From Ostreococcus lucimarinus (taxonomy: Eukaryota), in NCBI GenBank assembly GCA_000092065.1, contig CP000583.1: DNA of 64,000 bases; one strand, 5' to 3'. Position numbers and translations under genes: made by a program. The notes below the pieces were generated by a model. It ran no database searches. It had not been told where the DNA came from and was given only the letters and a program-made list of their open reading frames with translations. Of the stretch, positions 1 through 64,000 are shown in pieces (the first letter of the stretch is position 1; the number at the start of each line of letters is the position of its first letter).

Positions 1-951
1 GGACTCTAAACTTGTCTCGATGAGATAAGCCGCGGCTTGAGTCACGTCGGTGGCGTGAACGCGATTGTGATAATCGTTGTCGCGATATTTCCTCTCAATG
101 TCTGCAATAAAGTTTGAGACAGAATTGCGATCCAAAGGTAAAGCATGAAACAAATTGAAACGGTCAAACAAACCCATACTAAGCGTTTGAAGCGGACCTT
201 TACGTCCGCGCTCGCACTCGCTGGCGAATTTGTAGATGTCGAACGACGTCCAACTCGTGTACATCGGATTCCTGCCTACATCGGCGAAAATTGTATTCAT
301 GGACCCTCCCGGACTGTCCTCATCTCGCACGCCTTCACTGCTCGCCCGCGAAGGTAAAGAAGCGGCAGAATGATTTTGGCTCTGGATGTGATTTCTTGGT
401 CCTCGCATCTCGATCGCCAACTGCGCCATGTTTTGCGCGAGCATGAGCGAGGAGTTGTCCGCCGTGAAAAACTGTTCGACGAAGCCTTTCGCGACTGGAT
501 CGAGCAGATCCACCGCCGCCTGTTTGCTCGCCAAACTTCCATGAATCTGTAAAATCAACGCGTTCGCTAAACTCAGCGCGTTGGCGATCGCCTGTAACGT
601 ATCTAATGGATCGCTATCTGAGCCGTGAGCGCGCTTGGAAGCTTCGAGGTCCACGAGACGGCGAACGGTGTGAAACATCGTGCGATACACCGAGTTCTCC
701 GCAGCCGTCGACGTCCCCGGAACGAATTCACCGGTTTCCTCGTCCGCGATGATCTCATCGATCGCCGCATCCACCAACGCTTTCTTCGAGTTTGTCATCG
801 TCGCGCCGGCGGCGGCTTGCCTGTACAGTTCGAGCGACCGTCTTCGAAGACTCTTTCGCCCCGGCGGTACCCGCGGGCTCGCGCTCGACGTCGCGAACTC
901 CGTCAGCGTATCGCGAGACTCATAATCATCCAATTCGCTCGACTGCGACAT
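1..951 (-). CDS. 3',5'-cyclic nucleotide phosphodiesterase (class I PDE, HD domain), partial: C-terminus lies beyond the window start
   Basis: Minus-strand frame is open from ATG at 949-951 to position 1; I checked every codon by hand and found no stop. Translation ends ...FIADIERKYRDNDYHNRVHATDVTQAAAYLIETSLES, which matches the PDEase_I signature YHNxxHAxDVxQ. An alternative upstream in-frame ATG is at 1129-1131 (MGFFRKKTST...). The ORF track omits it because no stop falls inside the window. Confidence 0.7.
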   Translation of the reverse strand, partial: MSQSSELDDYESRDTLTEFATSSASPRVPPGRKSLRRRSLELYRQAAAGATMTNSKKALVDAAIDEIIADEETGEFVPGTSTAAENSVYRTMFHTVRRLVDLEASKRAHGSDSDPLDTLQAIANALSLANALILQIHGSLASKQAAVDLLDPVAKGFVEQFFTADNSSLMLAQNMAQLAIEMRGPRNHIQSQNHSAASLPSRASSEGVRDEDSPGGSMNTIFADVGRNPMYTSWTSFDIYKFASECERGRKGPLQTLSMGLFDRFNLFHALPLDRNSVSNFIADIERKYRDNDYHNRVHATDVTQAAAYLIETSLES

Positions 952-1872
952 CCGCTCGGTCCCCACCGCCCGAGTCGACCCGTTCTCGCTCAGCTCCCCG
1001 CTCCGCGCGCCCTTCGGCGACGTCGTCCCGTCCGCGCCGTCCCGAAGCGACCGTCTCCCCTCCGCGCTCGCGTTCTCCCTCCCCTCGTCCGAAGACGCTC
1101 GCGTCGACGTCTTCTTTCGAAAAAACCCCATCTCGCGCCGTCCGCCTCGTCCTCACCGCCGCGCGCGCGTCCTCGAGCGATCTCCGGCCCGCCTCGCGAT
1201 GAATCCTCGATGAATCCCCGCGTCGCGTCGTTCGACGCCCCGCGATCCCGCGATCCCGCGATCCCGCGATCCCGCGATTCGCGTCGCCTCGCGCGTCGTC
1301 GACCGCCGCGTCGTCGTCCCTCCGTCGACGCGCGCGATGAAGTCCCGCGTCGCCGTCGCCGTCGCCGTCGCCGTCGCGCGCGGGATAAACCCTAAGCGAC
1401 GCTTCACGACGCTTCACTCATGGGCTTTATCATCGCTCGAATGCGACGAAAACCATACGAGATCCGATCGGGCGATCGCGCGCGCCGATCGACGCACACC
1501 CGCGTGTGCGAATCCCGCGCGCGCCGATCGACGCACACCCGCGTGTGCGAATCCCGCGCGCGCGATCGCCCGATCGGATCTCCCGCGCGAATCGGATCGC
1601 GTCGCGACGCGCGATCGATCTCATGGGCTCGAACATCGCGCGAACGCGAGGAAACCGACCGCGCGGGGATTTATATCATTTATATCGCGCCTCGCCCGCG
1701 CGCGCGCGCGTCCGACGTCGCGCGACAGGTCGCGACGCGCGACACGCGGATCGGATCGCGCGCGCGCCCGACGGTCGTCCGACGACGCGCGAACGAGGAC
1801 GACGCGCGACGCGCGAGACCGCGATCGAACGAGGACGCGCGAAGGATGCGCGCGGCGACGACGACGACGCCG
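952..1872. promoter_or_regulatory. GC/CpG-rich divergent spacer between the PDE gene (-) and the coproporphyrinogen oxidase gene (+); contains tandem repeats
   Basis: It lies between two outward-facing start codons. It contains (CGCGATCCCG)x4 at about 1231-1270, (GTCGCC)x4 at about 1347-1372, and a 39-nt tandem duplication at about 1476-1560. Confidence 0.5.
1476..1560. repeat. 39-nt direct tandem duplication (gcgcgccgatcgacgcacacccgcgtgtgcgaatcccgc x2)
   Basis: Two identical 39-mers visible in the sequence. In the track ORF they give [13 protein letters not shown] twice. The region is GC-rich and non-coding-like. Confidence 0.8.
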
Positions 1873-2991
1873 ATGTCGCGGGCGATGCGGGCAACCGGTG
1901 TGGATAAACCTCGCGCGGTGCGGGCGTCCGCGGTGCGGGCGCGAGCGACGCGGGGAGGCGCGACGCGCGCGCGGGCGGCGGCGCAAGGGATCGAACAGGA
2001 GGTGAAGATCGACGCGGCGCCGACGACGCTGCTGAGAGAGGGATCGGGCGAGGAGGGGGACGCGACGCAGATGCGGGCGAGGTTTGAGAAGATGATTCGC
2101 GCGGCGCAAAATGAGATTTGCGACGCGATCACGGCGTTGGATGGGAAGCCGTTTCACGAGGACGCGTGGACGCGACCGGGTGGTGGTGGTGGGATCTCGC
2201 GCGTGTTGCAAGATGGGAACGTGTTCGAAAAGGCTGGCGTGAACGTGTCGGTGGTGTACGGACAGATGCCGCCCGAGGCGTATCGGGCGGCGACGGGGGA
2301 GGAAGGCGCGTCTAAGGAGATGATTCCGTTCTTCGCGGCGGGTATTTCGAGTGTTATGCACCCGCATAATCCGATGGCGCCGACCGTTCACTTCAACTAC
2401 CGTTATTTCGAGACGGATGCCCCCAAGGGCTCCGCGGGCGCGCCGCGCGCGTGGTGGTTTGGCGGCGGCACGGATTTGACGCCGTCGTACATTTTCGACG
2501 AAGACGTCACGCACTTCCACCAAACTTTGAAGGATATCTGCGATAAGCACGATGGCGAGTTTTACCCGAAGTTCAAGCAATGGGCGGATGATTATTTCAT
2601 GATCAAGCACCGCGGCGAACGTCGCGGCGTCGGCGGCGTCTTCTTTGACGACATGAACGACCGCAGCAAGGATGAACTCCTCGCGTTCGCGACGGACATG
2701 GCGGGCGGTGTCGTCCCGGCGTACGTCCCGCTCGTCGCCAAGCACAAGGACGATGAGTTCACGCCCGAACAACGCGCCTGGCAACAAATGCGCCGCGGTC
2801 GCTACGTCGAGTTCAACCTCGTGTACGACCGCGGGACGACGTTCGGTTTGAAAACCGGCGGTCGCATCGAATCCATCCTCATGTCTCTCCCGCGCTACTG
2901 CGAGTGGCAATACGACCACGCGCCCGAAGCCGGTTCTCGCGAGGCCGACGCGCTCGACGCTTTCAAGAACCCGAGAACGTGGTGCGCGTAA
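1873..2991 (+). CDS. CPOX: coproporphyrinogen III oxidase, oxygen-dependent (HemF/CPOX)
   Basis: The track ORF 1420..2991 has the conserved HemF core ([39 protein letters not shown]...[30 protein letters not shown]). The 5' part of the ORF is GC-rich junk. In-frame ATGs at 1846 and 1873 ([29 protein letters not shown]...) give an Arg/Ala-rich extension that looks like a targeting peptide. Start choice is uncertain. Confidence 0.85.
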
Positions 2992-3393
2992 GCGCGCCTC
3001 GTCCCTCGAGCGCGTGCTCTCTTAGTTTCGCCTCGTTCCGTCGTCGCGTCGACGCGCGTCGACGCGCCGCCTGCCGAGGCCCCTTTACGCACCATTCAAT
3101 CATTCAAACGACGAAGATTCGAGTTTTAAAATCGAAATCAGAATTCACTCCCGTCGTCCCCGCGTCTCGCGCCCTCTCTCGCCGTCTCGCCCTCGTCCTC
3201 GCGCTCGCCCGCGGGCCACCGGTGGCTCGAGCCTCCGCCTCGCGCCGCGTCGCGTTCCGCACTCCTCCGCGCGCGCGACGTCCGCGCGCTCGACGCCGTC
3301 GCCGAAGAACGTCGACGCGAACGCGCGCGACTTCGTTCGCGCTTTCATCGACACGCACCGAGCTTCGACGCGCGGCGTCGAGCGTCGATCGCG

Positions 3394-4266
3394 ATGGGCG
3401 GAGACTCGTTGGTCGTCACCCCCACGGGAGAGCTTCCGTTTCAGTGTGCGTGCGAACGACGCGCGAGCGCGCGGACGACGCGACGAGACGACGCGCGCGA
3501 CGCGCGCGCGAGAGACGGGATCGCGCGGCGACGCGCGACGCGAACGAGACGGTCGAAGGCGTTCGATCGCGAAGAGATCTTTGAATTTCAAAGTGGATTA
3601 TCGGAGACGCGGACGCGCGAGGCGCGCGTGTGATCGACGCGGTGACGAGGGAAGACGGGAGACTGACGATGAATCGATGAATGCGATGTTTCGCGAAACG
3701 CAGTCGAACTTAGAAAGCAGTGCGCGGCTGAACTGGTGTTGAAGAACCCCACGGGGGCGAAGCAGGCGTTCAAGGTGAAGACGACTTCGCCGAAGAAGTA
3801 TTGCGTCAAGCCAAACACTGGAATCGTCGAGCCCGGGGCCGAGATTAAGGTGACGGTGATGATGCAGGCGCATCGAGAGATGCCGGCGGACTTCAACGCG
3901 TGCAAGGATAAGTTTCTGATCCAATCGACGCCTAGCGGAGACTCTTCGGATATGACTGAGTTGTTCTCGCGACCGCCTACGAGTATCTCCGAGACTCGAC
4001 TTCGCGTGAAGTACGTCATGAGTGGTAAGACCGCGGCGATGGCCGAAGAGGTTACTCTTGCGCCGCCGCCGGCGAACGAGAGCGCGGAGCAGGAGCGGGC
4101 GCGCTTGCAGCGCGATGTGGCTCTCTTGCAGTCGCGAAACAAGGCGCTGGCGAACGACATGAATCTGATGATGAAGAAGGGCGGTAAGAGCATCGTTAAG
4201 GGTTTTACTTTGCTTCACATCTTACTCACGGCCATCTTGGCTTTCGTGCTCGGTCGTTATTTGTAA
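3394..4266 (+). CDS. VAP (VAMP-associated protein, MSP domain + coiled coil + C-terminal TM), two exons: 3394..3445 and 3704..4266
   Basis: Exon 1 is ATG at 3394 encoding MGGDSLVVTPTGELPFQ plus one nt, with donor GTGCGT at 3446. Exon 2 follows acceptor CAG at 3701-3703. The spliced product ...ELPFQFELRKQCAAELVLKNPTGAKQAFKVKTTSPKKYCVKPNTGIVEPG reproduces the plant VAP/MSP motif ELxFxFELxKQxxCxLxLxNxT...VAFKVKTTxPKKYCVRPN. Track ORF 3736.. begins with GTG, not ATG, and an in-frame stop at 3670 rules out a single exon. Confidence 0.85.
3446..3703 (+). other. intron (258 nt, GTGCGT...CAG, phase 1) of the VAP gene
   Basis: Removing it restores the contiguous MSP-domain motif. Track ORF 3446..3742 starts exactly at the donor GTG and is an artefact. 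Confidence 0.8.
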
Positions 4267-4387
4267 TCTCGAAATGTAGAAACGCCACTCAGAGTTGTGA
4301 CAATGAAAAAAGGTTTGCATTTATATTGAAACAAGCGCGCTTCTATGAATCAAAAGATAGAAGAAAAGATACACAAGACTGAAAAGA

Positions 4388-5938: not shown

Positions 5939-6919
5939 CGTCTCCCGTCGCCCCACCCCAGATCGTCGCTCGACCCACGCGCGTCGTCCGACTCCGCGCT
6001 CGCGTCGCGCGAGTCCTCCTCGCCGTTCGCGCCGCGCGTCCGCGCGCGTCGCGTTCGAAGACGTCCCCGCCGCGCCCACCATTTCCGCCCCCATCGCCCG
6101 CATCCCTCCGTCGCTCGCGCTTCCGACGTCCCCGATTCACCGTCGCGTCCTCGCGCGCCGTTCGGTCGCGCGCGCGTCGCGCTTGCCCTCGCCTATCGCG
6201 CGAGCACCGCGTCGATCCCACGAATTCGCGCGTCCGACGACGATTGAATGCGCGGGAAACCTCGTCGTCGTCGCGTCGCGTCGCGCGCGTCCGCGCCCGC
6301 GCGTCGCGGACCCGTCGTCGCGGCGACCGCGATCGTCGCGCGCCTATCGCGCGAGCCGCGAGGCGTCCGCGATCGGCGCGCGCGTCTCTGGCGCGCGCGC
6401 GCGTCGACCGCGGTCGGCACCCGTCGCGATCGTCGGACTGTTTGCCCATAGGAAGGGACGTCCCGACGACGACGCCGTCGTCGGCGCGCGCGCGGCGCGA
6501 CTCGCCGACGCGCGCGCGCCGATCGCCGCATGGAGCCGGCGACGCTGACGGTCCTCGCGATCTGCGCGCTCGCGGGCGCGAAACTGTCCGTCGGGGGGTA
6601 CCTCGCGTGGACGCATCGCGGCGCGTGTCGACGCGAGCGCGGCGGACGCGCGGGCGCGGACGCGCGCGAGGAGGACGCGCGCGAGGACGCGAAGGCGGCG
6701 TGATTCGACGCGCGGGGATCGATCGGGGGCGCGGTCGGTCGGAACGCGCGCGCGCGCGCGCGCGCGGTGTGTTCGCGCTGGGAGTTTCGAGGGACGGTTG
6801 AATTAATCTCGTCGTCGTCGGCGCCGCGAGAAGAGACGCGCGCGCGCGGCGCGAGCGACGGGAGACGATGGGATGGACGGGAAGTTTGAGCGATTTTGCT
6901 ACTAAACGCTCGCTAGAGG

Positions 6920-8770
6920 TCATCGGACGCCGACGGAGACGATGTCCCACACGAGACGCCGACGGAAATATTCCATGTGTTTCTGGGAAAACGCGAGTTC
7001 GGCGCCGGCGGAGAGGTAGTCAGCGTATTTGATCATGAAGACGCCGCAATCGCATCCGTTCTTTTGCAGGGGGATGTCTTTGGGGTAGGCTTCGATCCAC
7101 TCGTCCGGGTCCCAGTCCTCGTTGAGTTTATTCTTTGCCTCGTCGATGAGCCAACGCTTGAGATTCTTCACCGCGACGCCGCTCTCGCCGAGGAGAGAGT
7201 CGTAGTAACTGATGCGCTTCTTGCGCGTATCGATCTCAGCGAGCACCCAGTGTACGGATTGATGAATCGGTACGAAGATTTTTTCGCAGCGCAACACGTC
7301 GTACTTGAGCTTCTTCGGCAACGTCCATCTTCGGACGTTCGAGTAGTCGTACATGTTGCTATCCTGGTACAACTTGTTGATGAAAAAGGTGCTGAAAAAG
7401 TGCACCTTTGGCTGCGTCTCTCCTTTGGGCATACTATTTATGGCGCGTTGAGACAGCAAACCGATGGCAAAATTTGCAACCTCGTCGTTCAACCACGTGC
7501 CCGTCTTCAGAGTGGCAATGTCTTTTCCAGTGGCGTCGAGTGCACCCTGACCGACGAACGAACCGCTCGCTAAGATCTGCGTCGACGGCGCTCGCAACGC
7601 ATCTTGAACAGCTTCGAGCTGAGCCGCGGTGAGCGGCTTGAGGAACTTTTTAGCGGCCTTTTCGCGCTCTCGTCGCCTCTTGTGTTCCTCAGCCTCGACG
7701 CTCAGGCGCGAGAGTTGTTCCTCTAACCCGCTCGAAGTGGACGCAGAGAGCACTTGGTTCAACTTCTCTCGCCTGATTCTCAACGTTTCTTGCATATCAC
7801 GAATTGTTGCCGCATGCTTTGCCGAGAGCGATTCCGTCGGCGCGGTCGCCGCGTCGCGGCGGCTGGCGCGGTCCTTCTCTAAAGCCGCTCTTTGCGAACG
7901 TCCGGCGAGCGTTCCGTTCTCATGAGACGCGATCAACGCCTTGTAGTCTGACAAACCTTTCGGATCGTCCCACTTGCGCGTGTTGACGTACTTTTTGAAC
8001 GCATCTCCGAAAATATTGACCTTTTCGAACCGCTTAAACGTCGCGGCGCCGCCAAATCCTCGCTCGACGTCGCGCCCGTTCGAATCTTCCAAAACGCGCG
8101 CGTCTCTCATCCCACTCTGCGTTGTCCCCATGATGACGTCCCCGTACCCTCTATATACTACAGCACCACCGATCTCACTTCGCACCGACGTCCCACCCGG
8201 TTTGCCAAACGCGCTCGCCGTCCTTCTCCACGCCGCGTCCCGTCTGGCCTCTCGCGCAAACGTTGACCCCGTCCCTCCGCCCTCCAGCGATCGATCGCGC
8301 CCACTCCCCCCCACAACGTCGTCAAACAATCCAAAACGTCTCGGCGGCGTCGAATACGGATGCGCACGCGCGTATGCCACGCGTTCGCTCCAAGGACTCG
8401 TTCGCTGCAGCGCCCCGCCCGGGACGAGCACCGGCGTCGCGTGATCGATCTCTCCCGACCTCGCCGCGGCGCGTCCGTGATCTCGCTCGAGCGCCTCTAG
8501 CGTAGAAATCGTCCTCTCGCCCGTCTGTCGATCGCGCGCGAGCCCGTCGCGGGCGTACGTCGTCGTCAGGGGATCTTTAAACACCGCGCTGCGCGGGTTC
8601 AAGTGGTGCTCGTGACGCGCGAGAATGTCGTCGCGCACGCTACCTCGAGCGCTCGCCGGCGCGTTCTCGTCGAACGGTCGATGCGATCGTGACATTCGCA
8701 CGCGTCGTGCGCGAGCACGGGACGCGGGACGCGCGCAGTGAGCGTCGCGGGACTCGAAGTGTGGGATCAT
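6920..8770 (-). CDS. Ulp1/SENP-type SUMO protease (peptidase C48)
   Basis: The C-terminal catalytic domain has the H...D...C triad context (IHQSVHWVLAEID...YYDSLLG...QKNGCDCGVFMIKYADYL). ATG at 8768-8770 checked; alternative ATG at 8695. The N-terminal half is low-complexity. Confidence 0.8.
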   Translation of the reverse strand: MIPHFESRDAHCARPASRARARRVRMSRSHRPFDENAPASARGSVRDDILARHEHHLNPRSAVFKDPLTTTYARDGLARDRQTGERTISTLEALERDHGRAAARSGEIDHATPVLVPGGALQRTSPWSERVAYARAHPYSTPPRRFGLFDDVVGGSGRDRSLEGGGTGSTFAREARRDAAWRRTASAFGKPGGTSVRSEIGGAVVYRGYGDVIMGTTQSGMRDARVLEDSNGRDVERGFGGAATFKRFEKVNIFGDAFKKYVNTRKWDDPKGLSDYKALIASHENGTLAGRSQRAALEKDRASRRDAATAPTESLSAKHAATIRDMQETLRIRREKLNQVLSASTSSGLEEQLSRLSVEAEEHKRRREREKAAKKFLKPLTAAQLEAVQDALRAPSTQILASGSFVGQGALDATGKDIATLKTGTWLNDEVANFAIGLLSQRAINSMPKGETQPKVHFFSTFFINKLYQDSNMYDYSNVRRWTLPKKLKYDVLRCEKIFVPIHQSVHWVLAEIDTRKKRISYYDSLLGESGVAVKNLKRWLIDEAKNKLNEDWDPDEWIEAYPKDIPLQKNGCDCGVFMIKYADYLSAGAELAFSQKHMEYFRRRLVWDIVSVGVR

Positions 8771-8898
8771 CGTCCTGTCTTGTATGGGCGTCCGCTCGGC
8801 GACGGGGCGCGACGCGAGCGAGGACGTGGATGTGACGTGGATTGTGCAATATTCTGATTCGTGTTATTATGAGAAATGCTTCAGTTGCAGCGCTCAAA

Positions 8899-15783: not shown

Positions 15784-16171
15784 CCCCACGCCTCGCCTTC
15801 GCGTCCCACCCGCGCACGCGGCCTCCCACGCCAATCCACATCGTTTCTTTCCTCCACCGACCACGCGCGCGACGACCGTCGCGCCCCGCGCGCGCGCCCC
15901 GCCCCCCGCCGTTGCCGCATGCGATTGCCCAACGATTGATTTCGCAAATGTCCCGATCGACCCCGCCCGTCGCCCGCTCTCGCGCGCGCCGCTCCGCCGC
16001 TCCGCCGCCGCGCTCGCGGCGGCGCGCAGCGCCATTCGCGCTCGCGCTCGCGACGACTCGCGCGTCCGCGCCACGCACGTCCGCGCGCGCGGCGTTCTCA
16101 CGCGCGCGAAGAGCGAGCGAATTTAAGGGATCGTCGACGAAGATACGACGTCGCGGCGGTTCGCGCGCGTC

Positions 16172-16212
16172 CGTCGATCGATCGCGCGCGTCGGTCGATC
16201 GATCGCGCGAGG
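16172..16212. repeat. tandem repeat (gtcggtcgatcgatcgcgcgcg-like, x2) in the 5' spacer of the giant gene
   Basis: Seen directly. The surrounding 15784-16313 spacer is CpG-rich low complexity with (GAC/GATGAC)n at 16311-16345. Confidence 0.6.
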
Positions 16213-16309
16213 CTCGCGCGATCGATCGACGTCGCGCGCGCGCGACCGACCGAGGGATCGGCGGTCGGTCGACCGCGCGCGCGCGGCGCGAGAGCGCGGC
16301 GCGCGGGTT

Positions 16310-16313
<4 letters not shown>

Positions 16314-16343
<30 letters not shown>

Positions 16344-16745
16344 CGCGCGATGGCGCCGACGCGCGCGCGACCGGGTCGCGCGGCGAAGAGGGACGAGACG
16401 CGCGGAGGGGCGGTGACGCGCGCGGCGAAGGCGAGCGGTGGGCCGTACGAGGCGCGGAACGAGTTCGTGATCCCGGGCGGGGATGGCGGCGTCGTCGCGC
16501 GATTCGAGGAGGAGATGCGCGCGCGGGAGAAGATGGCGAAGGAGTGCGGGGCGACGGAGGCGAAATTGGTGAAGCTTAAGGCGAATGAGTACGCGTTTGA
16601 GCAGAAATGGGCGTCTAAGGAGGCGTACGAGGCGTACATGAACACCCCGGGGCGACGACGAAGCCACCTGACGGTGGGAGTGTATCAACGCTTGCCGAAG
16701 GATAAATGGAGCGTGCCGGAAAACTTTACGCCGGTGACGCGGTAA
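16314..16745 (+). CDS. small ABM/Dabb-like (antibiotic-biosynthesis-monooxygenase-fold) protein with T/R-rich targeting-peptide-like N-terminus
   Basis: The C-terminal 100 aa of track ORF 15912..16745 are coding-like (NEFVIPGGDGGVVARFEEEMRAREKMAKECGATEAKLVKLKANEYAFEQKWASKEAYEAYMNTP...HLTVGVYQRLP). It resembles the ABM signature ...W.S.EA..AH... In-frame ATG at 16314 (MTTTMTTTTTRAMAPTRARPG...). Confidence 0.4.
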
Positions 16746-21439: not shown

Positions 21440-21471
21440 TTTACGAAGGATGAAATTTTGCTACAGATTAT

Positions 21472-51111: not shown

Positions 51112-51592
51112 CTCGCGTCGCGTCGCGCGCGCGTCGTCGTCGTCGCTCGCGTTCGCTCGCGTCGCGCGCGTCTCGCGCGTCTCGCGTCGCGTCGCTCGCG
51201 CGCGCGTCGCGGCGTCGCGATGCGCGGCGCGCGCGTCGCGGCGTCGCCGACGGACGACGGCGGTTACGCCGCGTCACCGGACTGTTTGCCTGTGCGGACA
51301 GACGGATATGGACATACAGTGCGCCGACTGTTTCGCGCGCGCGTCCGCGACGTCCGCGACGCGGGCGCGACGCAGACGTCGGCGCGCGCGCGCGGGGTCG
51401 CACCGTCGCGCGAACGCGCGCGCGGTTTTATCCGCATCGGTTCGCGCGCGCGCGGCGCGCGAAGGCGCGTCGCAGAGGCGCGGAGACGGCGATCGCCGTC
51501 GCCCGCGCGGGACGCGCATCGCGCGGCGCGAACGAAGCGACGACGCCGGCGACGACGCGATCTCGACGGACGCGCGCGCGGAAGCGCGAACG

Positions 51593-53440: not shown

Positions 53441-53483
53441 ACGACATGTGTGTAATGTACAATTGTGCTAATGTACGGCTATA

Positions 53484-54368: not shown

Positions 54369-54566
54369 CGTCGTCGTCGTCGTCGTCGCGCGTCGTCGTG
54401 CGTCGTCGCGCGTCGTCGCGCGTCGCCGTCGCCGCGTCGCCGTAGGCGCCGCGCGCGGTGTGATTATCGACGAATCGCGAATGCGCGGTGCGCGCGGTCT
54501 GCGCGGCACACCGCGCCGACGCCGCGACTCGACCGATCGACCGAGCGAGCGACCGAGACATAAACC

Positions 54567-56253
54567 ATGGGCGTGTGTGGATCATCGCCCGCGGTGCCGG
54601 TGCGTCGCGCGACGCGAACGCGAACGACGCGAACGACGCGTGTGGAATAATCGTGGCGTCGAATTGCCACGTTGAATTCCCGCGCGCGATCGAGCGCGCG
54701 ACCGCGATGGGAACGCGCGATGAGGCGATGAGAACGGTGATAGGGGCGTGAAGAGCGAGACGTGAATCGAGACTGACCGCGCGCGTGATCGTTGACGCGT
54801 TTCGCGCGAGTAGTATGAGGAAACGAATAAGCGGACGGGGAAGCAGAATCCCGTGGGGAAAACCGCGCGACCGTCGAGCGTGCTCGGACGGGAAACGCCG
54901 GATGTGAATGATTTATTTGAGTTCCACGAAGAACTTGGACGCGGTCAGTTCGGGACGACGTTCTTGGTGACAGAAAAGGCGACCGGTCGTAAGTGCGCGT
55001 GCAAGGCTATCTCTAAGCGTCAATTGTCGAACGCCGAGGACATTGAAGAGGTGAGAAATGAAGTGAGAATTCTTCATCACCTCGCCGGTCACGAGCACGT
55101 CGTCGAACTCGTCGGTGCGTATGAAGGAAGCAAGCACGTGTACATCGTCATGGAACTCTTGTCCGGCGGCGAATTGTTCGATCGCATTGTTGAAAAGGGC
55201 AAGTACAGTGAAAAGGACGCGTCCGAGACGGTGCGCACCATCGTTGAAACTGTTCAATACTGCCACGAGTTGAGCGTCATGCACCGTGATTTGAAGCCTG
55301 AAAATTTTGTCTTGAAGAATAAGGATAAGAATTCTCCGGTCTGCGCTATCGATTTCGGTTTATCTACGTTCTTCCGCGAGAACCAAGTCTTCATGGATCT
55401 TGTCGGGAGCCCGTACTACGTTGCGCCGGAAGTATTGCGTCGTCGATACTCAAACGAATCCGACGTCTGGTCATGCGGTATCATCCTTTACATTCTCTTG
55501 TCTGGTGTCCCGCCGTTCTGGGCTCAAACCGAGCAAGGAATTTTCGACGCCATCTTGCAAGGCGCACTGGATCTCGAGAGCGACCCATGGCCGAAGATCA
55601 GTGCGGAGGCGAAAGAACTCATCTCTGGCATGCTCCAAGCGGACCCGAAGAAGCGCCTGACGGCGGCTCAAGTGTTGAAACACCCGTGGGTGGCTGATCC
55701 GAACGTTGCGCCGAAGACAAAGCTAGACAACGTCGTGTTCAAGCGGTTCAAGAACTTTGCTGGTATTTCCAAGTTCAAGAGGATGGGTTTGATGGCGATG
55801 GCTCGCACCATGACTGCGGACGAAGTCGCTGGCTTGAGAGAACTCTTCAAGAGCTTCGATACCGACAACTCTGGTACGATTTCCATCGACGAACTTCGCC
55901 AAGGCTTGAAACTCAAGTCTGCGGGTCCCGCAATGGAGGAACTCCGCACACTCATGAAGACTATTGACGTCGATGGCAGCGGCGAACTTGACTACGAAGA
56001 GTTCATTGCCGCTACGCTCGCGCAATCGAGACAAGCGTCCGACGCCGCTGTGAGACGCGCTTTTGATTACTTTGATACCGATGGGGATGGTTCCATCACG
56101 GTGCAAGAATTTGAACAAGCCTTCAAAAAGATGTCTGATGTTGAGCGTGCCAACTTGGGAGACATTGGCGAGTTGATTGCCAGCGCCGACACTGACGGTG
56201 ATGGTTGCATCGATTTCAACGAGTTTATGGCTATGATGAAAGCGGACAAGTAG
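54567..56253 (+). CDS. CDPK: calcium-dependent protein kinase (CDPK: Ser/Thr kinase, autoinhibitory junction, four EF-hands); probable exons 54567..54599 and about 54847..56253
   Basis: Kinase domain LGRGQFGTTFLV...HRDLKPENF...DFGLS...SPYYVAPE. Four EF-hand loops (DTDNSGTISIDE, DVDGSGELDYEE, DTDGDGSITVQE, DTDGDGCIDFNE). Track ORF 54853.. starts on GTG, with an in-frame stop at 54811 and no ATG between them. An upstream micro-exon ATG 54567 (MGVCGSSPAVP) ends at donor GTGCGT (54600). It carries a classic N-myristoylation/palmitoylation motif. The acceptor is one of several in-frame AGs between 54813 and 54846, the best being gcag|AAT at 54843-54846. Confidence 0.85.
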
Positions 56254-56459
56254 GCTGCGCGCGCTTCGCTGGGCCGTATTTAATACTGCCGGTACTTTAT
56301 TTTCAATCTCTCGTTTTTCATATAATTAACAAGAAGGTAACGTAAATGAGAAACGAAGCGCTCCGCGCTCGTCGCTCGCAACCAACGCGCAAACATTTGC
56401 CATCGCGTACTATCGTAGACGAACGGCGACGAAACCATCGTAACAGAAGGCGCGACTGA

Positions 56460-57057
56460 TTAAACGCCCACCTTGACGAGCTCCATCTCGAAAATGAGCA
56501 CGGAGTCCGGCTTGATGAGCGGCGTAGGGGATGATTTACCGTACGCCAGCTCGGACGGAATTACGAGTTCCCACTTATCGCCCTCCTTCATGAGCTGCAT
56601 CGCCTCGGTCCAGCCACTGATGACTTGATTCGGCGCGAACGTCGTCGGTTGACCGCGCTTGTACGACGAATCAAACTCCTCGCCCTGGATATTCTTCCCA
56701 GAGTAGTGACACGAGCACGGCGTCGACTTCGAGGGCGAGGGCCCACCCTCCGGTCCAGATTTCAAAACGCGATACTGCAACCCCGACGGCAGCTCGACCA
56801 CGCCCGGTTTCAACTTATTGGCCTGCGTCGCGCGACGAACCATCGTCGTCAGTCCACATCGCGTCGTCGGACGCGTCCGGTTCGTCGAGTCATCGAACCA
56901 TCCCATCATCGCGCGCGCGCATTCGTTCGCCGCGCACCGCGAGAAACGCCGCGCCGTCGCTCTTCGCGTCCGCCATGCCGCCGACGAACGCGCAACCGAT
57001 CAACGCGATCACCGCCAGGACGAGCGCGAGCGTCGTCGATCGTCGCCCGCGAGCCAT
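56460..57057 (-). CDS. FKBP-type peptidyl-prolyl isomerase, Mip/FkpA-like, with signal peptide; two exons: 56938..57057 and 56460..56822
   Basis: Exon 1 is ATG 57057 (MARGRRSTTLALVLAVIALIGCAFVGGMADAKSDGAAFLA), a signal peptide ending at donor GTGCGC. Exon 2, after acceptor CAG, is ANKLKPGVVELPSGLQYRVLKSG...FKBP domain (FDSSYKRGQPTTF...VISGWTEAMQLMKEGDKWELVIPSELAYG...LIFEMELVKV). The junction ...AAFLA|ANKLKPGVVELPSGLQY reproduces the Mip/FkpA linker FLxxNKxKPGVxxLPSGLQYKV. Track ORF 56460..56909 begins on an internal ATG-ATG. Exon 2 coordinates are derived from the ORF frame and may be off by one. Confidence 0.8.
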
Positions 57058-57084
57058 CGCGGAGTGCGGATTCGCCGATCGCGC

Positions 57085-57150
57085 GCGCGTCGACCGATCG
57101 ATCGACCGATCGATCGATCGATCGACCGATCGATCGACCGACCGCGTCGA
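57085..57150. repeat. GATC-containing tandem repeat (CGATCGATCGAC-type units) in the 5' region of the FKBP gene
   Basis: gtcgaccgatcgatcgaccgatcgatcgatcgatcgaccgatcgatcgaccgacc, seen directly. Confidence 0.7.
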
Positions 57151-57657
57151 GCGTCGGCCGAATCCGATCGCGACGCGACGATTCGATTCGTCACACTGGT
57201 CGAGACGCGCGTCGAGACGCGCGCGCGCGCTCGACGCGCGCGCGGCACACGACGACGACGACGCGCGCGGCGCGCGACGAGTGATTTTTAGAGAAAGCTC
57301 GCGCGCGCGACGCGACGCGACGCGACGAGGGCGCGGCGGGGATGACGGCGAAGAAACGCGCGGAGGAACGCGCGAGGCGAGGGGAGACGAAGCGCTGCGG
57401 CAACGCGCCGTGCGGGAGCGAGGTGGGACGATCGATCGGCGCGATCGCGGACGACGGGACTGACGATGATTGGTAATCGTGCGCGCAGGAGACGCCGATG
57501 TGGCGTAAGGGGTGGATCGATGATGATGGGGTTGAGGTGGACTTGTGTAACGCGTGCGGTGCGCGGCGCGCGCGCGACGAGACGAAGACGACGCGAAAGC
57601 GCGCGGACGACGATGCGCGTGACACGCGACTGACGCGCGCGCGCTTGAATCGTAGGT

Positions 57658-59313: not shown

Positions 59314-59346
59314 AAGAAATGTGCGCGTGAATTTTACTACACTCTA

Positions 59347-61768: not shown

Positions 61769-63757
61769 TCACGAAGAGCGGCGGACGCGGCGCTTGGACG
61801 GGGTCTTCTTCTCGTCTTCGGCCGGCGGCTCGTTTTCGTCGCCCTCGTTTTCGTCGTCGTCGTCCTCCTTGACGTCGTCGTCCTTCTTCTTCTTCGCGTC
61901 CTTGGCTTGTTGCGCCTTCTTCGACTTTTGCTCGTCGGTCGGGCGCATGAACTTGACGGCGATGAAGAGAATGATCAACGCGATGGGGAGAGTGACGAAA
62001 GTGAGGTAGTAGTGGAGGGCGTTGGTGGCAAAGTGCGACATGGCATCTTGCGCGAAGACGCCGACGGGGCCCGGGATTTTGTCGGCGATGGACTCGAAGA
62101 AACGGAGACCGATCGGAGCCGAGGGCTCGCGAGCGGCTTCGGCGTCAGCCTTGGCCTTCGCTTCTTGTTCACGAGCTTCGACGGCAGAGTTCACCGCTTC
62201 AGCCTTGGCCTCAAACGCATCCTTACCGAAAGCCTTGACGGCGGCGATGTCTTCGTCGGCGACAATGTTGTCGAGCACTAAGCCCTTGGACATGGTCCAG
62301 ACTTCGACACCAACGGCACCAATCTTACCGATGTTCGCCAATGGAGTCTTGTCTTCGTAGAACTTCGGGTTCGCGATTTGCTTCGGCTTCCATTCGCCCT
62401 TGTACTTCGGGTTGTCGATCATCGGCGCGTACCACTTGCCCTTGTACTCCGGGTTGGGCTTTTCCGGACGAGTCCACTCGCCGCAACCAGAAACTTCGGC
62501 GCACGCCGGGTTGGGCACCATCGGAGCTTCCCAGTCACCGTCTTCTTCGACGTCCCAGTCTTCGGGGATGACGGCTTCCTCGTCTTCGACTTGGGCCGGT
62601 TCGTCGTCGAGCCAGTCATCCGGCTTGACGGCGTCCATGTCCGGAATCATCGCCGGAGCGTCTTCGTCCCAGTCCGCCGGCTTCTTCGCCTTGGGATCCG
62701 GAATCTTGTCTTCATCGACCCAATCTTCGGGCTTCTTGTCATCGGGATCGTCAATCTCCTTGGGCGGGTTGAACGGCGGCTCAAAGTCCTCGAACAGAGA
62801 GCCCGTGCGTTCCTCCTTGCCGTCGATGGAGACGGTGTACGTGTTATCCTCGTTGACCTCCAAAGAGTAGAGATGCACCTTCTCGTCGACCGGCATGCGC
62901 GGCGGGTTCTTCAAGTGCTTCTCTTCGACTTCGCCGTCGAGCGGGGACTTGTGCTTGAAGATGACGTGCACCTTGTTCGTACCGCCGCACTTATCCGGAC
63001 CAAACATCACCGTGTACGGCGTGTCTCCGTCGAACGAATCCGCGTCGTACTCGTCGGCGTTCAAGTACTTCAAGTACGCACCACCGCATTCCAACCCTTC
63101 TTCTTGGCGCGCTTCGAACTGAAGCGCGAAACCGTTGGACGGATCGAGCGGGGAAGACAACGCCTTGGACACGCCGTAGTGCTGCGCCTCCTTCGGAAGG
63201 TACAACCCGTAGTCATCCGTATCCTTCGCCTTCTTCGCGATCGCCTTACCTACATCGCGCGAAACCATCGATCGTTCGAGTCAGTCACGCATCGCGACGC
63301 GCGTTTCGTCCCATCCACCGCCGTCGTCCCCCCGTCGTCGATTCCCGTCCCGTCGCCGTCGCTCGCGCTCGCGCGATCTCGGATCTCCGTCTCGCCTCGC
63401 GCGTCCCCCTCCCGCCCCTCCGCGCGCGCCTCGACGCCCGCTCGACCCTCTCCCGCGCCTCCGCGCGTCTTCCCGCGCCCGCGCGTCCGTCCTCGCGCGC
63501 GCGTCCCGATCGTTCGCGCGTCATCCCTCGCGCCTCCGCCATCGAATCTCGTCGAAGCCGCCGTCCATCGCGATGGGCGTCTTCTTGCGCGATCGTCGCG
63601 TCGCGCGTCGCGCACCCGTGTACTTGGCCTCGCTCGAGCGCGTCCATCCCGCGAGCGCGCCGTCGTCGAACGTCTCCGCGAGCTTGAGCGCGCTCGCGGG
63701 CGCGCAGAGCGCGCCGAGGGCGACCGCGCACGCGACGCGCGTCGCGCGCGTCGGCAT
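61769..63757 (-). CDS. CNX: calnexin (ER lectin chaperone; signal peptide, lectin domain, P-domain repeats, TM, acidic/Lys tail); two exons: 63616..63757 and 61769..63249
   Basis: Exon 2 (track ORF 61769..63268) has [12 protein letters not shown], the P-domain repeats [14 protein letters not shown] / [10 protein letters not shown] and [25 protein letters not shown], a TM ([17 protein letters not shown]) and a KKKD-rich tail. Exon 1 is ATG 63757 ([47 protein letters not shown] plus g). Donor GTGCGC at 63615; acceptor TAG at 63250-63252. The spliced junction [20 protein letters not shown] parallels human AKYDGKWEV...GDKGLVL. Alternative start ATG 63799. Confidence 0.85.
63250..63615 (-). other. 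intron (366 nt, GTGCGC...TAG, phase 1) of the calnexin gene
   Basis: It coincides exactly with junk track ORF 63250..63615 (-). That ORF starts on the donor GTG and ends on the acceptor TAG. Confidence 0.75.
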
Positions 63758-63876
63758 CGCGTCGTCGAGTGGCGACGCGACGCGGCGATCGCGCGCCAAT
63801 CGGATCGCGCGGCGCGTGCGATCGCGCGCGCGTGGGCATACAGTGAGGCGATCGGACGCGCGGAGACAGAGAGATC

Positions 63877-63953
63877 TCGGGGAGGGTGTTTCGCCCGGGG
63901 CGCGCGTCTCGCCCGGGGAGGGTTTTTCGCCCGGGGAGGGTTTTTCGCGTCGT
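63877..63953. repeat. tandem about 20-mer repeat (cgcccggggagggtttttcg x2 plus degenerate copies)
   Basis: Seen directly at the window end, upstream of the calnexin start. Confidence 0.7.
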
Positions 63954-64000
63954 CGTCGGACGAGGGTGGTTTCGCGCGTCGCGACGGCGCGACGGCGACG

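What the first reader, a model, noticed from the sequence alone, without database searches (positions are those of the whole stretch)
1..64000. Inverted compositional architecture: moderate-GC exons embedded in extremely GC/CpG-rich spacers and introns, with AT-rich islands only at convergent 3' ends
Coding segments are about 50% GC with mixed third positions. 5' spacers and introns are 70-80% GC, built from ACGCG/CGCGCG low complexity and microsatellite-like tandem units, and they generate long stop-free junk ORFs on both strands (for example 5646-6950). Short AT-rich stretches occur essentially only where two genes converge 3'-to-3' (4267-4387, 28433-28491, 39588-39681, 53441-53483, 56254-56459). 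This is the opposite of the usual eukaryotic pattern. It implies either strong GC-biased gene conversion or mutation bias acting preferentially on non-coding DNA, or functional CpG-island-like promoters and introns in an unmethylated genome.
Basis: seen in the sequence. Interest (0 to 1): 0.6.

Follow-up and report, generated by a model that had tools for sequence, protein, structure and literature searches.

The report
Promoter-centred GC peaks in Ostreococcus
In this very compact green-alga (Ostreococcus) chromosome segment, GC and CpG content peaks at every gene start and falls with distance into the genes, while a short conserved AT-rich patch follows every stop codon; this is a real and strong pattern, but it depends on position relative to gene starts, not on exon versus non-coding DNA.

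Summary
The window is nuclear DNA of an uncultured Ostreococcus species: 35 genes, 85% coding, syntenic with O. tauri. Head-to-head 5' spacers are 73% GC, the ten introns 69%, CDS 57%, and tail-to-tail spacers 49%. CpG observed/expected is 2.0 in non-coding DNA.

The details need correcting:
- Coding DNA is 57% GC, not about 50%, and GC3 is 66%.
- Half the introns are below 65% GC.
- AT-rich patches follow every stop codon, in tandem pairs too, and also occur deep inside one giant gene.

The main result is that the contrast is positional. GC at fourfold-degenerate sites falls from 0.87 next to a start codon to 0.46 beyond 3.5 kb. It rises again where a gene's 3' end nears a neighbour's promoter. 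Introns and spacers are GC-rich because they all lie in the 5' zone.

The GC-rich spacers are repeat-rich and the fastest-evolving sequence here. The AT patches are conserved.

The most likely cause is GC-biased gene conversion focused at promoters. Hypomethylation of 5' ends probably adds a CpG-specific part. O. tauri shares the pattern; Bathycoccus does not. The kind of pattern is known from grasses, birds and yeast, but I found no report of it for this lineage.

The parts
1132..1845 (.). Divergent 5'-5' spacer between the phosphodiesterase and coproporphyrinogen oxidase genes. GC 0.706, CpG o/e 2.06.
   Evidence: Only 70.6% identical to sister species L005, with 22 indels that are mostly not multiples of 3. 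TRF arrays present.
2992..3393 (+). Tandem spacer. An AT-rich patch after the CPOX stop (3092-3145, GC 0.31) is followed by the GC-rich MSP promoter zone.
   Evidence: The first 160 nt are 96.2% conserved and the next 240 nt 87.6%.
3446..3703 (+). Intron of the MSP/VAP gene (GTGCGT...ACTGAC...CAG). GC 0.647.
   Evidence: The splice restores the MSP-domain N-terminus and an open CDS.
4267..4387 (.). Convergent 3'-3' AT-rich spacer (MSP / beta-amylase). GC 0.347.
   Evidence: 94.2% identical to L005 with no indels.
6095..6919 (-). Tandem spacer upstream of beta-amylase. GC 0.741.
   Evidence: 81.8% identical to L005 with 14 indels.
8696..8898 (-). Tandem spacer. An AT-rich patch after the stop of the 2378-aa gene (8838-8887) is followed by the Ulp1 promoter zone.
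   Evidence: 3' patch 96.6% conserved.
8899..16035 (-). 2378-aa gene with a U-shaped GC3 profile: 0.81 at the 5' end, 0.37-0.41 mid-gene, 0.65-0.68 at the 3' end next to the Ulp1 promoter.
   Evidence: Spearman -0.85 against distance to the nearest ATG.
16036..16514 (.). Divergent spacer, GC 0.745.
16746..16877 (.). Convergent spacer, GC 0.523, 40-bp minimum 0.35.
18024..18293 (.). Divergent spacer upstream of RPSA, GC 0.722, containing a (CG)n array. Its left boundary is uncertain.
19296..19538 (.). Convergent spacer (RPSA / sybindin), GC 0.539, 40-bp minimum 0.33.
19965..20158 (.). Divergent spacer (sybindin / aminotransferase), GC 0.804.
21440..21471 (.). Convergent spacer of 32 bp, GC 0.281.
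23581..23624 (.). Convergent spacer of 44 bp, GC 0.386.
24381..24587 (.). Divergent spacer (Yip1 / RPL39), GC 0.783.
24591..24962 (+). RPL39 intron 1 (372 nt, GC 0.763). It follows a first exon made only of ATG.
25067..25194 (+). RPL39 intron 2 (128 nt, GC 0.586).
25244..25591 (.). Convergent spacer (RPL39 / endosulfine), GC 0.612, with AT patches (40-bp minimum 0.30 at 25519).
25925..26701 (.). Divergent spacer, GC 0.750. The most polymorphic stretch of the window.
28433..28491 (.). Convergent AT-rich spacer, GC 0.356.
31468..31734 (.). Divergent spacer, GC 0.674, a SNP hot spot.
32272..32332 (.). Convergent spacer, GC 0.361.
34504..34623 (-). RPT4 intron (120 nt, GC 0.600).
   Evidence: tblastn with O. 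tauri RPT4 and the sequence itself.
34798..34996 (.). Divergent spacer (RPT4 / GHMP kinase), GC 0.724.
37905..37938 (.). Convergent spacer of 34 bp, GC 0.412.
38572..39017 (.). Divergent spacer (HVSL / DoxX-like), GC 0.756. It contains a putative 5'-UTR intron at 38787-39004 (GC 0.739).
   Evidence: The intron is inferred from splice signals only.
39588..39681 (.). Convergent spacer, GC 0.436, 40-bp minimum 0.25.
39682..51111 (-). 3809-aa UBR4-like gene. GC3 is 0.83 at the 5' end, plateaus at 0.41-0.58 more than 2 kb from either end, and rises to 0.69-0.76 at the 3' end. This gene explains the 45-49% GC stretch at 42-49 kb.
   Evidence: (Pfam E3_UbLigase_R4).
51112..51307 (.). Divergent spacer (UBR4-like / JmjC), GC 0.770, with dense (TCGCG)n-type arrays.
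53441..53483 (.). Convergent spacer, GC 0.372.
54369..54566 (.). Divergent spacer upstream of CDPK, GC 0.727.
54600..54813 (+). CDPK intron (214 nt, GC 0.636). It follows an 11-codon exon encoding MGVCGSSPAVP.
56254..56459 (.). Convergent spacer (CDPK / FKBP), GC 0.495, 40-bp minimum 0.20 at 56293.
56823..56937 (-). FKBP intron (115 nt, GC 0.661).
57058..57341 (.). Divergent spacer (FKBP / GATA-PHD gene), GC 0.708, with a (TCGA)n array.
57423..57488 (+). GATA-finger gene intron 1 (66 nt, GC 0.636).
57559..57655 (+). GATA-finger gene intron 2 (97 nt, GC 0.711).
59314..59346 (.). Convergent spacer of 33 bp, GC 0.364.
63250..63615 (-). Calreticulin intron (366 nt, GC 0.727, with TRF arrays). It lies between the signal-peptide exon and the main exon.
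63758..64000 (.). Start of the divergent spacer upstream of calreticulin (GC about 0.72-0.78), hypervariable in the population. The next gene's ATG lies just beyond the window.

Best explanation
The window comes from a normal, recombining chromosome of an Ostreococcus species.

Shown:
- Base composition depends on distance to the nearest gene start. Every promoter/5' zone (spacer, 5' UTR, first exon, first intron) is a GC and CpG peak. GC is 0.70-0.80 in non-coding DNA and 0.83-0.87 at fourfold-degenerate sites.
- The peak decays on both sides over about 1.5-2.5 kb, to about 0.46-0.50 at fourfold sites.
- A short conserved AT-rich patch follows each stop codon.

Inferred mechanism: meiotic recombination starts preferentially in promoter regions, as in other organisms that lack PRDM9. 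GC-biased repair of the heteroduplex (gBGC) raises the fixation of A/T-to-G/C changes within a conversion-tract length of each promoter. This works against a GC-to-AT mutation bias that pulls distant sites down.

Inferred second component: 5' ends are hypomethylated and gene bodies are CG-methylated. Gene bodies therefore lose CpG faster, which steepens the gradient at CpG-forming sites.

Inferred from composition and variability: the spacers are weakly constrained, repeat-prone and fast-mutating. That makes them CGCGCG-type microsatellite-like sequence with accidental long ORFs.

Inferred from conservation and motif enrichment: the AT-rich 3' patches are kept by selection as polyadenylation/termination signals, including TGTA[AG], shared by overlapping convergent 3' UTRs.
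For: Positional pattern:
- GC4 by distance to the nearest ATG: 0.87 (0-75 nt), 0.81 (300-450), 0.73 (600-900), 0.60 (1.2-1.8 kb), 0.51 (1.8-2.5 kb), 0.46 (>3.5 kb).
- A logistic model on distance to the nearest ATG of any gene fits better than one on distance to the gene's own ATG (logL -5223 vs -5265; null -5620).
- 18 of 21 genes have higher GC3 in codons 0-99 than in codons 200-299 (Wilcoxon p=3e-4).
- Both giant genes have U-shaped GC3 profiles that rise again towards a neighbour's promoter.
- 100-bp GC against distance to the nearest ATG: Spearman -0.71.
- The gradient persists at fourfold sites that cannot form CpG (about 0.66-0.76 within 600 nt of an ATG, falling to 0.44-0.48). It is steeper at CpG-forming sites (0.91 falling to 0.46). 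CpG o/e falls from 2.04/1.75 to 1.38 while TpG/CpA rise from 0.5-0.7 to 1.0-1.16.
- The same gradient is seen in conserved, homology-aligned codons of O. tauri (GC4 0.86 falling to 0.60) and of the sister species, so it is not an artefact of start-codon choice.
- The syntenic O. tauri locus has the same spacer pattern: divergent 0.733, genes 0.589.

Literature:
- The mutational equilibrium GC is only 0.37 in O. tauri, against 0.59 observed (PMC5455958).
- The O. tauri site-frequency spectrum fits gBGC, GC rises with per-chromosome recombination rate, and LD halves within 2 kb (PMC5498103).
- Non-recombining mating-type regions are 9-17% lower in GC (PMC8557840).
- 5mCG is lowest at the ATG and reaches a plateau by 200-300 bp.

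Constraint:
- 5' spacers are 71-88% identical to the sister species. Third codon positions are 91% identical and 3' patches 88-97%.
- Within the species, divergent spacers carry 43.6 SNP positions and 17.2 indel events per kb, against 7.3 and 1.3 in CDS.
- TGTA[AG] lies within 60 nt after 12 of 34 stops, against 3.6 expected.
Against: - There is no recombination map and no valid polarised substitution or allele-frequency data for the promoter zones. My three-taxon polarisation was invalid, because the supposed ingroup L006 is a mosaic.
- Polarised SNPs were available only far from promoters, and they show no W-to-S frequency advantage.
- Mutation-accumulation data report that the GC-to-AT bias is significant in coding but not in intergenic DNA, and that intergenic mutation rates are two-fold higher (PMC5455958). 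This favours a mutational cause.
- Bathycoccus has a weak GC4 gradient but AT-rich spacers. Synonymous GC can therefore be decoupled from spacer GC in this order.
- Distances beyond 1.8 kb are sampled from only 2-3 genes.
- Some start codons and introns are inferred without RNA evidence.
Confidence: 0.5

Rival explanations
1. Regional mutation bias without biased fixation. Promoter-proximal DNA is hypomethylated, nucleosome-poor and partly untranscribed, and it has a different mutation spectrum: little 5mC deamination, no transcription-coupled repair, replication slippage of CG-rich repeats. Its mutational equilibrium is therefore GC- and CpG-rich. Methylated, transcribed gene bodies decay towards AT.
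For: - CpG-forming fourfold sites show the steepest gradient, and TpG/CpA rise as CpG falls.
- O. tauri 5mCG is about 6% at the ATG and 31-33% in gene bodies.
- Mutation-accumulation lines show no significant GC-to-AT bias in intergenic DNA and a two-fold higher intergenic mutation rate (PMC5455958).
- Spacers are hypervariable and repeat-rich.
Against: - Methylation reaches its plateau 200-300 bp into the CDS, but GC4 keeps falling out to about 2-3 kb.
- The gradient is also present at sites that cannot form CpG.
- CpG o/e never drops below 1.3, even deep in gene bodies.
- GC3 rises again inside the 3' ends of genes that abut a neighbour's promoter, in DNA that is still transcribed gene body.
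Confidence: 0.25
2. Selection on composition. GC/CpG-rich 5' zones are kept because they work as CpG-island-like promoters (nucleosome exclusion or positioning, transcription-factor CGCG boxes, 5' splice sites GTGCG[CT]). High GC3 near starts would reflect selection on 5' mRNA or on codon usage.
For: - The pattern is regular at every gene start.
- It is shared by O. tauri.
- Splice signals are themselves GC-rich.
- Bathycoccus shows that synonymous GC can be high beside AT-rich spacers, which suggests some codon-level selection in the order.
Against: - The spacers are the least conserved sequence in the window, full of non-3n indels and tandem-array turnover.
- The effect is symmetric around promoters and reaches the 3' ends of upstream genes, which mRNA-level selection does not predict.
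- It spans about 2 kb, far more than a promoter needs.
Confidence: 0.12
3. A process specific to non-coding DNA makes spacers and introns GC-rich, while exons sit at a separate coding equilibrium of about 50% GC.
For: Class means do differ: 0.73 and 0.69 against 0.57.
Against: - Fourfold-degenerate coding sites near starts are more GC-rich than the spacers. First exons inside the 5' zone are GC-rich too; for example the endosulfine CDS is 0.75.
- Non-coding 3' spacers are AT-rich.
- Distance to a promoter predicts GC within single genes.
Confidence: 0.03

Closest known systems
5'-to-3' GC3 gradients and GC-rich 5' UTRs of grasses and other angiosperms, attributed to gBGC at promoter-proximal recombination hotspots (my own knowledge of the Glemin/Serres-Giardi work). 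PMC3887541 reports that monocot 5' UTRs are the most GC-rich class.
   Same: A GC3 gradient that declines from the start codon over about 1 kb. 5' UTR and upstream DNA as GC-rich as CDS or more so. The effect is seen at synonymous and non-coding sites alike.
   Different: Here the genome is haploid and tiny, with genes every 1.8 kb. The peaks therefore overlap and only giant genes reach the baseline. Spacers are CGCGCG microsatellite-like, and CpG is over-represented everywhere. I found no published description for this lineage.
Promoter/CpG-island recombination hotspots with gBGC footprints in eukaryotes that lack PRDM9: yeast, birds, dogs (my own knowledge). In Chlamydomonas, recombination is highest flanking genes (PMC7186780).
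   Same: GC/CpG peaks at transcription starts, symmetric decay on a kilobase scale, and hypomethylated 5' ends.
   Different: No recombination map shows hotspots at Ostreococcus promoters. In Chlamydomonas, short intergenic tracts actually recombine less than average, and the upstream 200 nt are the least GC-rich class (PMC7186780, PMC3887541).
Vertebrate CpG islands
   Same: CpG-dense, GC-rich stretches a few hundred bp long at promoters and first exons/introns. They are probably unmethylated while gene bodies are methylated.
   Different: The background genome is not CpG-depleted (CpG o/e 1.4-1.6 in gene bodies). The standard CpG-island thresholds are met by the whole window and do not discriminate. 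The sequences are tandem-repeat-rich and evolve fast.
Low-GC outlier (mating-type / BOC1, SOC) regions of Mamiellales (PMC8557840, PMC3491373, PMC13298755)
   Same: The accepted logic is the same: without recombination, GC falls by 9-17% under a GC-to-AT mutation bias. Interiors of the giant genes here reach similar GC (GC3 0.41-0.58).
   Different: Those are contiguous regions of 150 kb to 1.7 Mb, with many small AT-rich introns and transposons. Here the low-GC stretch is the interior of a single 11.4-kb intronless gene on a standard chromosome.
TSS-proximal 5mCG depletion in O. tauri (preprint 10.64898/2026.07.10.737489)
   Same: It is centred on the ATG, as the GC/CpG peak is.
   Different: Methylation recovers within 200-300 bp, whereas the GC4 gradient extends about ten times further. 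That preprint does not discuss base composition around starts, judging by my term searches.

Membership tests
Promoter-centred gBGC footprint (5'-3' GC gradient of the grass / PRDM9-less type) | Synonymous-site GC declines with distance from the gene start | tested here: met
   GC4 falls from 0.87 to 0.46. 18 of 21 genes show it in a paired test, p=3e-4. It is also seen in O. tauri and in the sister species.
Promoter-centred gBGC footprint (5'-3' GC gradient of the grass / PRDM9-less type) | The effect is a property of DNA position: it is symmetric around promoters and also affects non-coding DNA and neighbouring genes' 3' ends | tested here: met
   The nearest-ATG model beats the own-ATG model (delta logL 41). 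Both giant genes have U-shaped GC3 profiles. Spacers and introns in the zone are GC-rich.
Promoter-centred gBGC footprint (5'-3' GC gradient of the grass / PRDM9-less type) | Excess fixation, or higher derived-allele frequency, of W-to-S over S-to-W changes in the GC-rich zones | tested here: inconclusive
   The three-taxon polarisation is invalid because L006 is a mosaic. Polarised SNPs were available only about 2.8 kb from promoters: S>W 69 and W>S 40, with no frequency skew.
Promoter-centred gBGC footprint (5'-3' GC gradient of the grass / PRDM9-less type) | GC peaks coincide with measured recombination or double-strand-break hotspots | not testable with these tools
   This needs an LD-based or pedigree map. 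Only chromosome-scale correlations are published for O. tauri (PMC5498103).
CpG island (vertebrate sense) | At least 200 bp with GC >=0.5-0.55 and CpG o/e >=0.6, at promoters | tested here: met
   Divergent spacers have GC 0.73 and CpG o/e 2.05. The whole window also passes (GC 0.59, o/e 1.62), so the criterion does not discriminate.
CpG island (vertebrate sense) | Stands out from a CpG-depleted, methylated background | tested here: not met
   CpG o/e is 1.34-1.5 in gene bodies at every distance class beyond 300 nt.
CpG island (vertebrate sense) | Unmethylated while flanking DNA is methylated | not testable with these tools
   Literature for O. tauri only: about 6% 5mCG at the ATG and 31-33% in gene bodies.
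Mamiellales low-GC outlier region (BOC1 / SOC) | Contiguous multi-gene low-GC block with many small AT-rich introns, transposons and lost colinearity | tested here: not met
   The 42-49 kb low-GC stretch is the interior of one intronless 3809-aa ORF. The window is colinear with O. tauri and Bathycoccus. Its introns are 66-372 nt and GC-rich.
Micro/minisatellite arrays | Head-to-tail repeated units with length polymorphism | tested here: met
   TRF reports 93 rows and covers 43.5% of divergent spacers. Indel polymorphism is 17 events per kb there.
Green-algal TGTAA-type polyadenylation signal in 3' AT patches | The motif is enriched just downstream of stop codons | tested here: met
   TGTA[AG] lies within 60 nt after 12 of 34 stops, against 3.6 expected from shuffles. 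Cleavage sites were not mapped.

The most novel reading that the evidence does not exclude
Every promoter of a standard Ostreococcus chromosome is a meiotic recombination / gene-conversion hotspot. The GC4 landscape (0.87 at starts, 0.46 beyond 3 kb) would then be a base-pair-scale fossil map of recombination in an organism whose sex has never been observed directly. The trait would be lineage-specific, since the spacer part is absent in the sister genus Bathycoccus. That would give a natural contrast for asking what sets gBGC strength or hotspot usage in minimal eukaryotes.
Probability: 0.4. Interest if true: 0.65.

Novelty: new member of a known kind. Interest (0 to 1): 0.45.

Why it matters
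If the promoter-centred gradient is a gBGC footprint, composition alone gives a fine-scale picture of historical recombination in the smallest free-living eukaryotes, for which no crosses exist. It would also explain several things at once:
- why gene length predicts GC in these genomes;
- why gene finders over-extend ORFs into the 5' zones;
- why spacers are hypervariable between strains in metagenomes;
- why intergenic and coding mutation spectra looked different in mutation-accumulation studies.

The Ostreococcus/Bathycoccus contrast (GC-rich versus AT-rich spacers in syntenic loci) is a simple comparative system.

In practice, 'GC-rich means non-coding' is a poor annotation rule here. First exons, signal and transit peptides, and one whole small gene (endosulfine, 75% GC) lie inside the GC peaks.

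Tried and rejected
1. Homologue search with the whole 3809-aa protein timed out. An 800-aa internal piece returned nothing at E<=1e-30. I had hoped to fetch divergent relatives for 30-61 kb.

2. Three-taxon polarisation of substitutions gave GC* of 0.62 near promoters and 0.27 far from them. I reject this result. L006 is L005-like at 1-2200 and mostly window-like from about 2650, with only 15 private differences. L005 is therefore not an outgroup, and the counts are unpolarised species differences.

3. SNPs polarised with L005 as outgroup cover only promoter-distal sites and have implausibly high derived frequencies. This probably reflects introgressed haplotype blocks. Inconclusive.

4. Rfam and tRNA scans found nothing in the moderate-GC gap at 24.9-25.6 kb. 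That gap turned out to hold RPL39, with two introns.

5. Max-suffix single-exon gene models truncated N-termini and missed 5' exons. They were replaced by hand-curated models.

6. I considered that the 42-49 kb low-GC stretch might be outlier-chromosome DNA. Rejected (see the membership test).

7. I considered that the GC-rich ORFs might be real low-complexity coding sequence. Rejected for the spacers: GC1/2/3 are flat, coding potential is absent and indels against the sister species are not multiples of 3. Accepted for several first exons.

8. Literature searches found no statement that Ostreococcus non-coding DNA is more GC-rich than coding DNA, and no report of a 5'-3' GC3 gradient. Derelle 2006 and Huff & Zilberman 2014 were not held, so prior description cannot be excluded.

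Full report
**What the window is.** The 64-kb window is 58.8% GC, with CpG o/e 1.62 and TpA o/e 0.50. It is packed with long ORFs that have eukaryotic Pfam domains, including beta-amylase, Ulp1 protease, RPSA, RPT4, CDPK, calreticulin, JmjC and a UBR4-like E3 ligase. RPT4 is 90% identical to Ostreococcus tauri. Thirteen consecutive genes are colinear with an O. tauri contig, and another block is colinear with Bathycoccus. Exact copies of its proteins occur only in marine metagenome assemblies, in more than 1000 blocks of the collection, including contigs of about 0.96 Mb. It is therefore a standard chromosome of an abundant, uncultured or unannotated Ostreococcus species. Rfam and tRNA scans found nothing.

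**Annotation.** No annotation was supplied, so I built one. I trained a codon log-likelihood track on Pfam-supported segments. I located start codons. I resolved 5' exons and introns from domain truncations, homologue alignments and splice signals. The result is 35 genes, with 84.7% of the window in CDS, and ten introns (one of them a putative 5'-UTR intron). All ten introns are 5'-proximal. Eight of ten have the 5' splice site GTGCG[CT], the confirmed ones I inspected carry an ACTGAC branch site about 30-40 nt before the acceptor, and nine end in YAG. Every spliced CDS translates without internal stops. Some start codons remain uncertain, for example those of CPOX, g16878, JmjC and g16413.

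**Checking the observation.** Class statistics:
- CDS: GC 0.572 (GC1 0.60, GC2 0.45, GC3 0.66, fourfold sites 0.69).
- CDS without the two giant genes: GC3 0.72, GC4 0.76.
- Introns: 0.69 (range 0.59-0.76).
- Thirteen divergent 5'-5' spacers: 0.734.
- Eight tandem spacers: 0.669.
- Thirteen convergent 3'-3' spacers: 0.489, each with a 40-bp minimum of 0.20-0.41.
- CpG o/e: about 2.0 in all non-coding classes and 1.54 in CDS.

The differences are significant (Mann-Whitney p about 1e-5). TRF arrays cover 43.5% of divergent spacers and 23.7% of introns, against 3.4% of CDS. CGCGCG is the top hexamer. The stop-free ORFs at 5646-6950 exist and are not coding beyond 6094: their GC1/2/3 are flat, they have no coding potential, and their indels against a sister species are not multiples of 3.

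The direction of the claim is therefore right, but three details are not. Coding DNA is not about 50% GC. Half the introns are below 65%. AT-rich patches are not confined to convergent ends. The 50 nt after stop codons average 0.45-0.46 GC over all genes, and such patches occur in tandem pairs too. Of the 28 most AT-rich 40-bp segments, 19 lie inside CDS, mostly deep in the 3809-aa gene.

**What it really is.** The contrast depends on position.
- GC at third and fourfold positions falls steadily with codon index: GC3/GC4 are 0.85/0.87 (codons 0-25), 0.77/0.83 (100-150), 0.64/0.64 (300-500), 0.58/0.58 (500-1000) and 0.52/0.50 (>1000).
- Synonymous sites near starts are thus more GC-rich than the spacers.
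- The periodicity GC3 > GC1 > GC2 shows that these sites are real coding sequence.
- The paired within-gene test is significant: 18 of 21 genes, p=3e-4.
- Distance to the nearest start codon of any gene predicts GC4 better than distance to the gene's own start (delta logL 41).
- The two giant genes have U-shaped GC3 profiles. One runs 0.81, then 0.37-0.41, then 0.65-0.68. The other runs 0.83, then a plateau of 0.41-0.58, then 0.69-0.76. Each rises again where its 3' end approaches a neighbour's promoter.
- For 100-bp windows, GC against distance to the nearest ATG gives Spearman -0.71.

Introns and 5' spacers are GC-rich because they all lie inside the promoter-centred peak. CDS averages lower because of amino-acid constraint (GC2 0.45) and because long gene bodies lie far from promoters. 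The 45-49% GC stretch at 42-49 kb is simply the interior of one gene.

**Constraint.** I compared the window with a sister species about 94% identical (L005; L038 and L039 are the same species).
- CDS is 95.6% identical, and third positions 91%.
- 5' spacers are 71-88% identical, with many non-3n indels.
- The MSP intron is 88.8% identical.
- The AT-rich 3' patches are 88-97% identical.

Among 28 haplotype contigs of the same species (99.4-99.9% identical over the well-aligned stretches), divergent spacers carry 43.6 SNP positions and 17.2 indel events per kb, against 7.3 and 1.3 in CDS. The GC-rich DNA is therefore the least constrained sequence here, and the AT-rich 3' patches are under purifying selection. 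TGTA[AG] occurs within 60 nt after 12 of 34 stops, against 3.6 expected. Convergent stops can be only 32-44 bp apart, so the 3' UTRs must overlap.

**Mechanism.** Two components can be separated.
- At fourfold sites that cannot form CpG, GC falls from about 0.66-0.76 near promoters to 0.44-0.48 far away.
- At sites that can form CpG, it falls from 0.91 to 0.46. Over the same range CpG o/e drops from 2.04 (non-coding) and 1.75 (proximal CDS) to 1.38, and TpG/CpA rise from 0.5-0.7 to 1.0-1.16.

The literature supplies the context:
- Mamiellales mutation is GC-to-AT biased, with equilibrium GC 0.37 against 0.59 observed in O. tauri. Intergenic mutation rates are two-fold higher and not significantly GC-to-AT biased (PMC5455958).
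- The O. tauri site-frequency spectrum fits gBGC, chromosome GC tracks recombination rate, and LD halves within 2 kb (PMC5498103).
- Non-recombining mating-type regions are 9-17% lower in GC (PMC8557840, PMC13298755).
- O. tauri CG methylation is about 6% at the ATG, recovers within 200-300 bp and plateaus at 31-33% in gene bodies (preprint 10.64898/2026.07.10.737489).

I favour gBGC focused on promoter-associated recombination initiation as the main driver (confidence about 0.5). It fits the symmetric kilobase-scale decay, its presence at sites that cannot form CpG, its extension well beyond the methylation transition, and a baseline close to that of non-recombining DNA. Hypomethylation of 5' ends probably adds the CpG-specific excess. 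A purely mutational explanation remains a serious rival (about 0.25). Selection on composition is less likely (about 0.12), given how freely the spacers evolve.

I could not obtain valid polarised data. My first attempt must be disregarded, because L006 is a mosaic of the two lineages. The polarised SNPs are all far from promoters and are uninformative.

**Relatives.** The syntenic O. tauri locus has the same architecture: genes 0.589, divergent spacers 0.733, convergent spacers 0.545, and GC4 falling from 0.86 to 0.60. The sister species shows the same gradient (GC4 from 0.82 to 0.52). Bathycoccus, syntenic for another block, has the usual pattern: genes 0.50 and spacers 0.35-0.42, with only a weak GC4 gradient (0.75-0.80 to 0.64-0.67). 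A 68%-GC relative (L037, unidentified, possibly Micromonas) has no spacer contrast but does have a GC4 gradient (0.95 to 0.80). GC-rich spacers thus look like a trait of the genus Ostreococcus, on a very small sample. The Bathycoccus case warns that synonymous GC and spacer GC can be decoupled.

**Comparison with what is known.** The pattern works like the 5'-to-3' GC gradients and GC-rich 5' UTRs of grasses, and like the promoter/CpG-island hotspots of organisms that lack PRDM9. It does not qualify as a vertebrate-type CpG island system, because the background is not CpG-depleted. It is not outlier-chromosome DNA. In Chlamydomonas and Volvox the order is the reverse: CDS 66%, introns 58%, and 5' UTR and upstream DNA 52% (PMC3887541). 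In the papers I could search, I found no description of non-coding DNA being more GC-rich than coding DNA, or of a promoter-centred GC3 gradient, in Ostreococcus. Two key older papers were not available.

**Verdict.** This is a real and statistically strong compositional architecture. It is best filed as a new member of a known kind of pattern. Interest is moderate (0.45). It would rise if genome-wide tests confirm the gBGC-hotspot reading, above all the mating-type-region control.

Noticed in passing
L006 aligned to window 1-6438: Contig L006 (ERZ10646569) is a mosaic. It matches the sister species L005 at window 1-2200 and mostly matches the window from about 2650 on, with only 15 private differences. 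It is either a natural recombinant between two cryptic Ostreococcus lineages or a chimeric metagenome assembly.
   Followed up: partly
window 11500-14500 and 35250-35750: Dense SNP clusters lie inside CDS among haplotypes that are otherwise 99.5-99.9% identical: up to 15 SNPs per 250 bp in the 2378-aa gene, and 50 SNPs in 500 bp of the GHMP kinase gene. This suggests divergent or introgressed haplotype blocks.
   Followed up: no
window 9746-10033 (- strand gene) and 27352-27914 (+ strand gene): Two unrelated genes carry in-frame tandem arrays of a similar 24-nt unit, roughly an Ala/Lys/Glu/Asp-rich octapeptide by my reading. Large indels, many of them multiples of 3 and up to 393 bp, segregate between haplotypes.
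   Followed up: partly
window 24588-25243: The ribosomal protein L39 gene was missed by all ORF-based callers. Its first exon is the ATG alone, followed by a 372-nt intron of 76% GC and then a 128-nt intron.
   Followed up: yes
all ten introns, e.g. 3446-3703, 54600-54813, 63250-63615: Splice signals are unusually uniform and GC-rich. The 5' splice site is GTGCG[CT] in 8 of 10 introns, and the confirmed introns I inspected have an ACTGAC branch site about 30-40 nt before the YAG acceptor. Every intron is 5'-proximal.
   Followed up: partly
divergent gene pairs across the window: ATG-to-ATG distances of head-to-head genes cluster at 194-284 bp (8 of 13 pairs). One pair (pseudouridine synthase / RNA methyltransferase, 22651-22674) is only 24 bp apart by my start-codon choices. 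Stop-to-stop distances of convergent pairs go down to 32-44 bp, which implies overlapping 3' UTRs.
   Followed up: partly
60 nt downstream of stop codons, e.g. 4274-4282, 36077-36083, 39660-39670: TGTA[AG] is enriched after stop codons (12 of 34 genes, 3.6 expected). It resembles the TGTAA polyadenylation signal of Chlamydomonas (that comparison is from my own knowledge).
   Followed up: partly
window 6531-6704 (+): A 57-codon ATG-initiated ORF lies in the GC-rich spacer between beta-amylase and Ulp1. It has a hydrophobic N-terminal stretch and a charged tail. Conservation against the sister species is poor (10-bp and other indels), so it is probably not a gene.
   Followed up: partly
window 38560-38585: The palindrome GCGCGCATGCGCGC lies at the HVSL start codon and provides an ATG on both strands.
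   Followed up: no
L036 (Bathycoccus, OZ116916.1) against window 1-19000: Gene order is conserved between this Ostreococcus and Bathycoccus (RPSA ... Ulp1, beta-amylase, MSP, CPOX, PDE), but spacer composition is opposite: 35-42% GC against 67-80%.
   Followed up: partly
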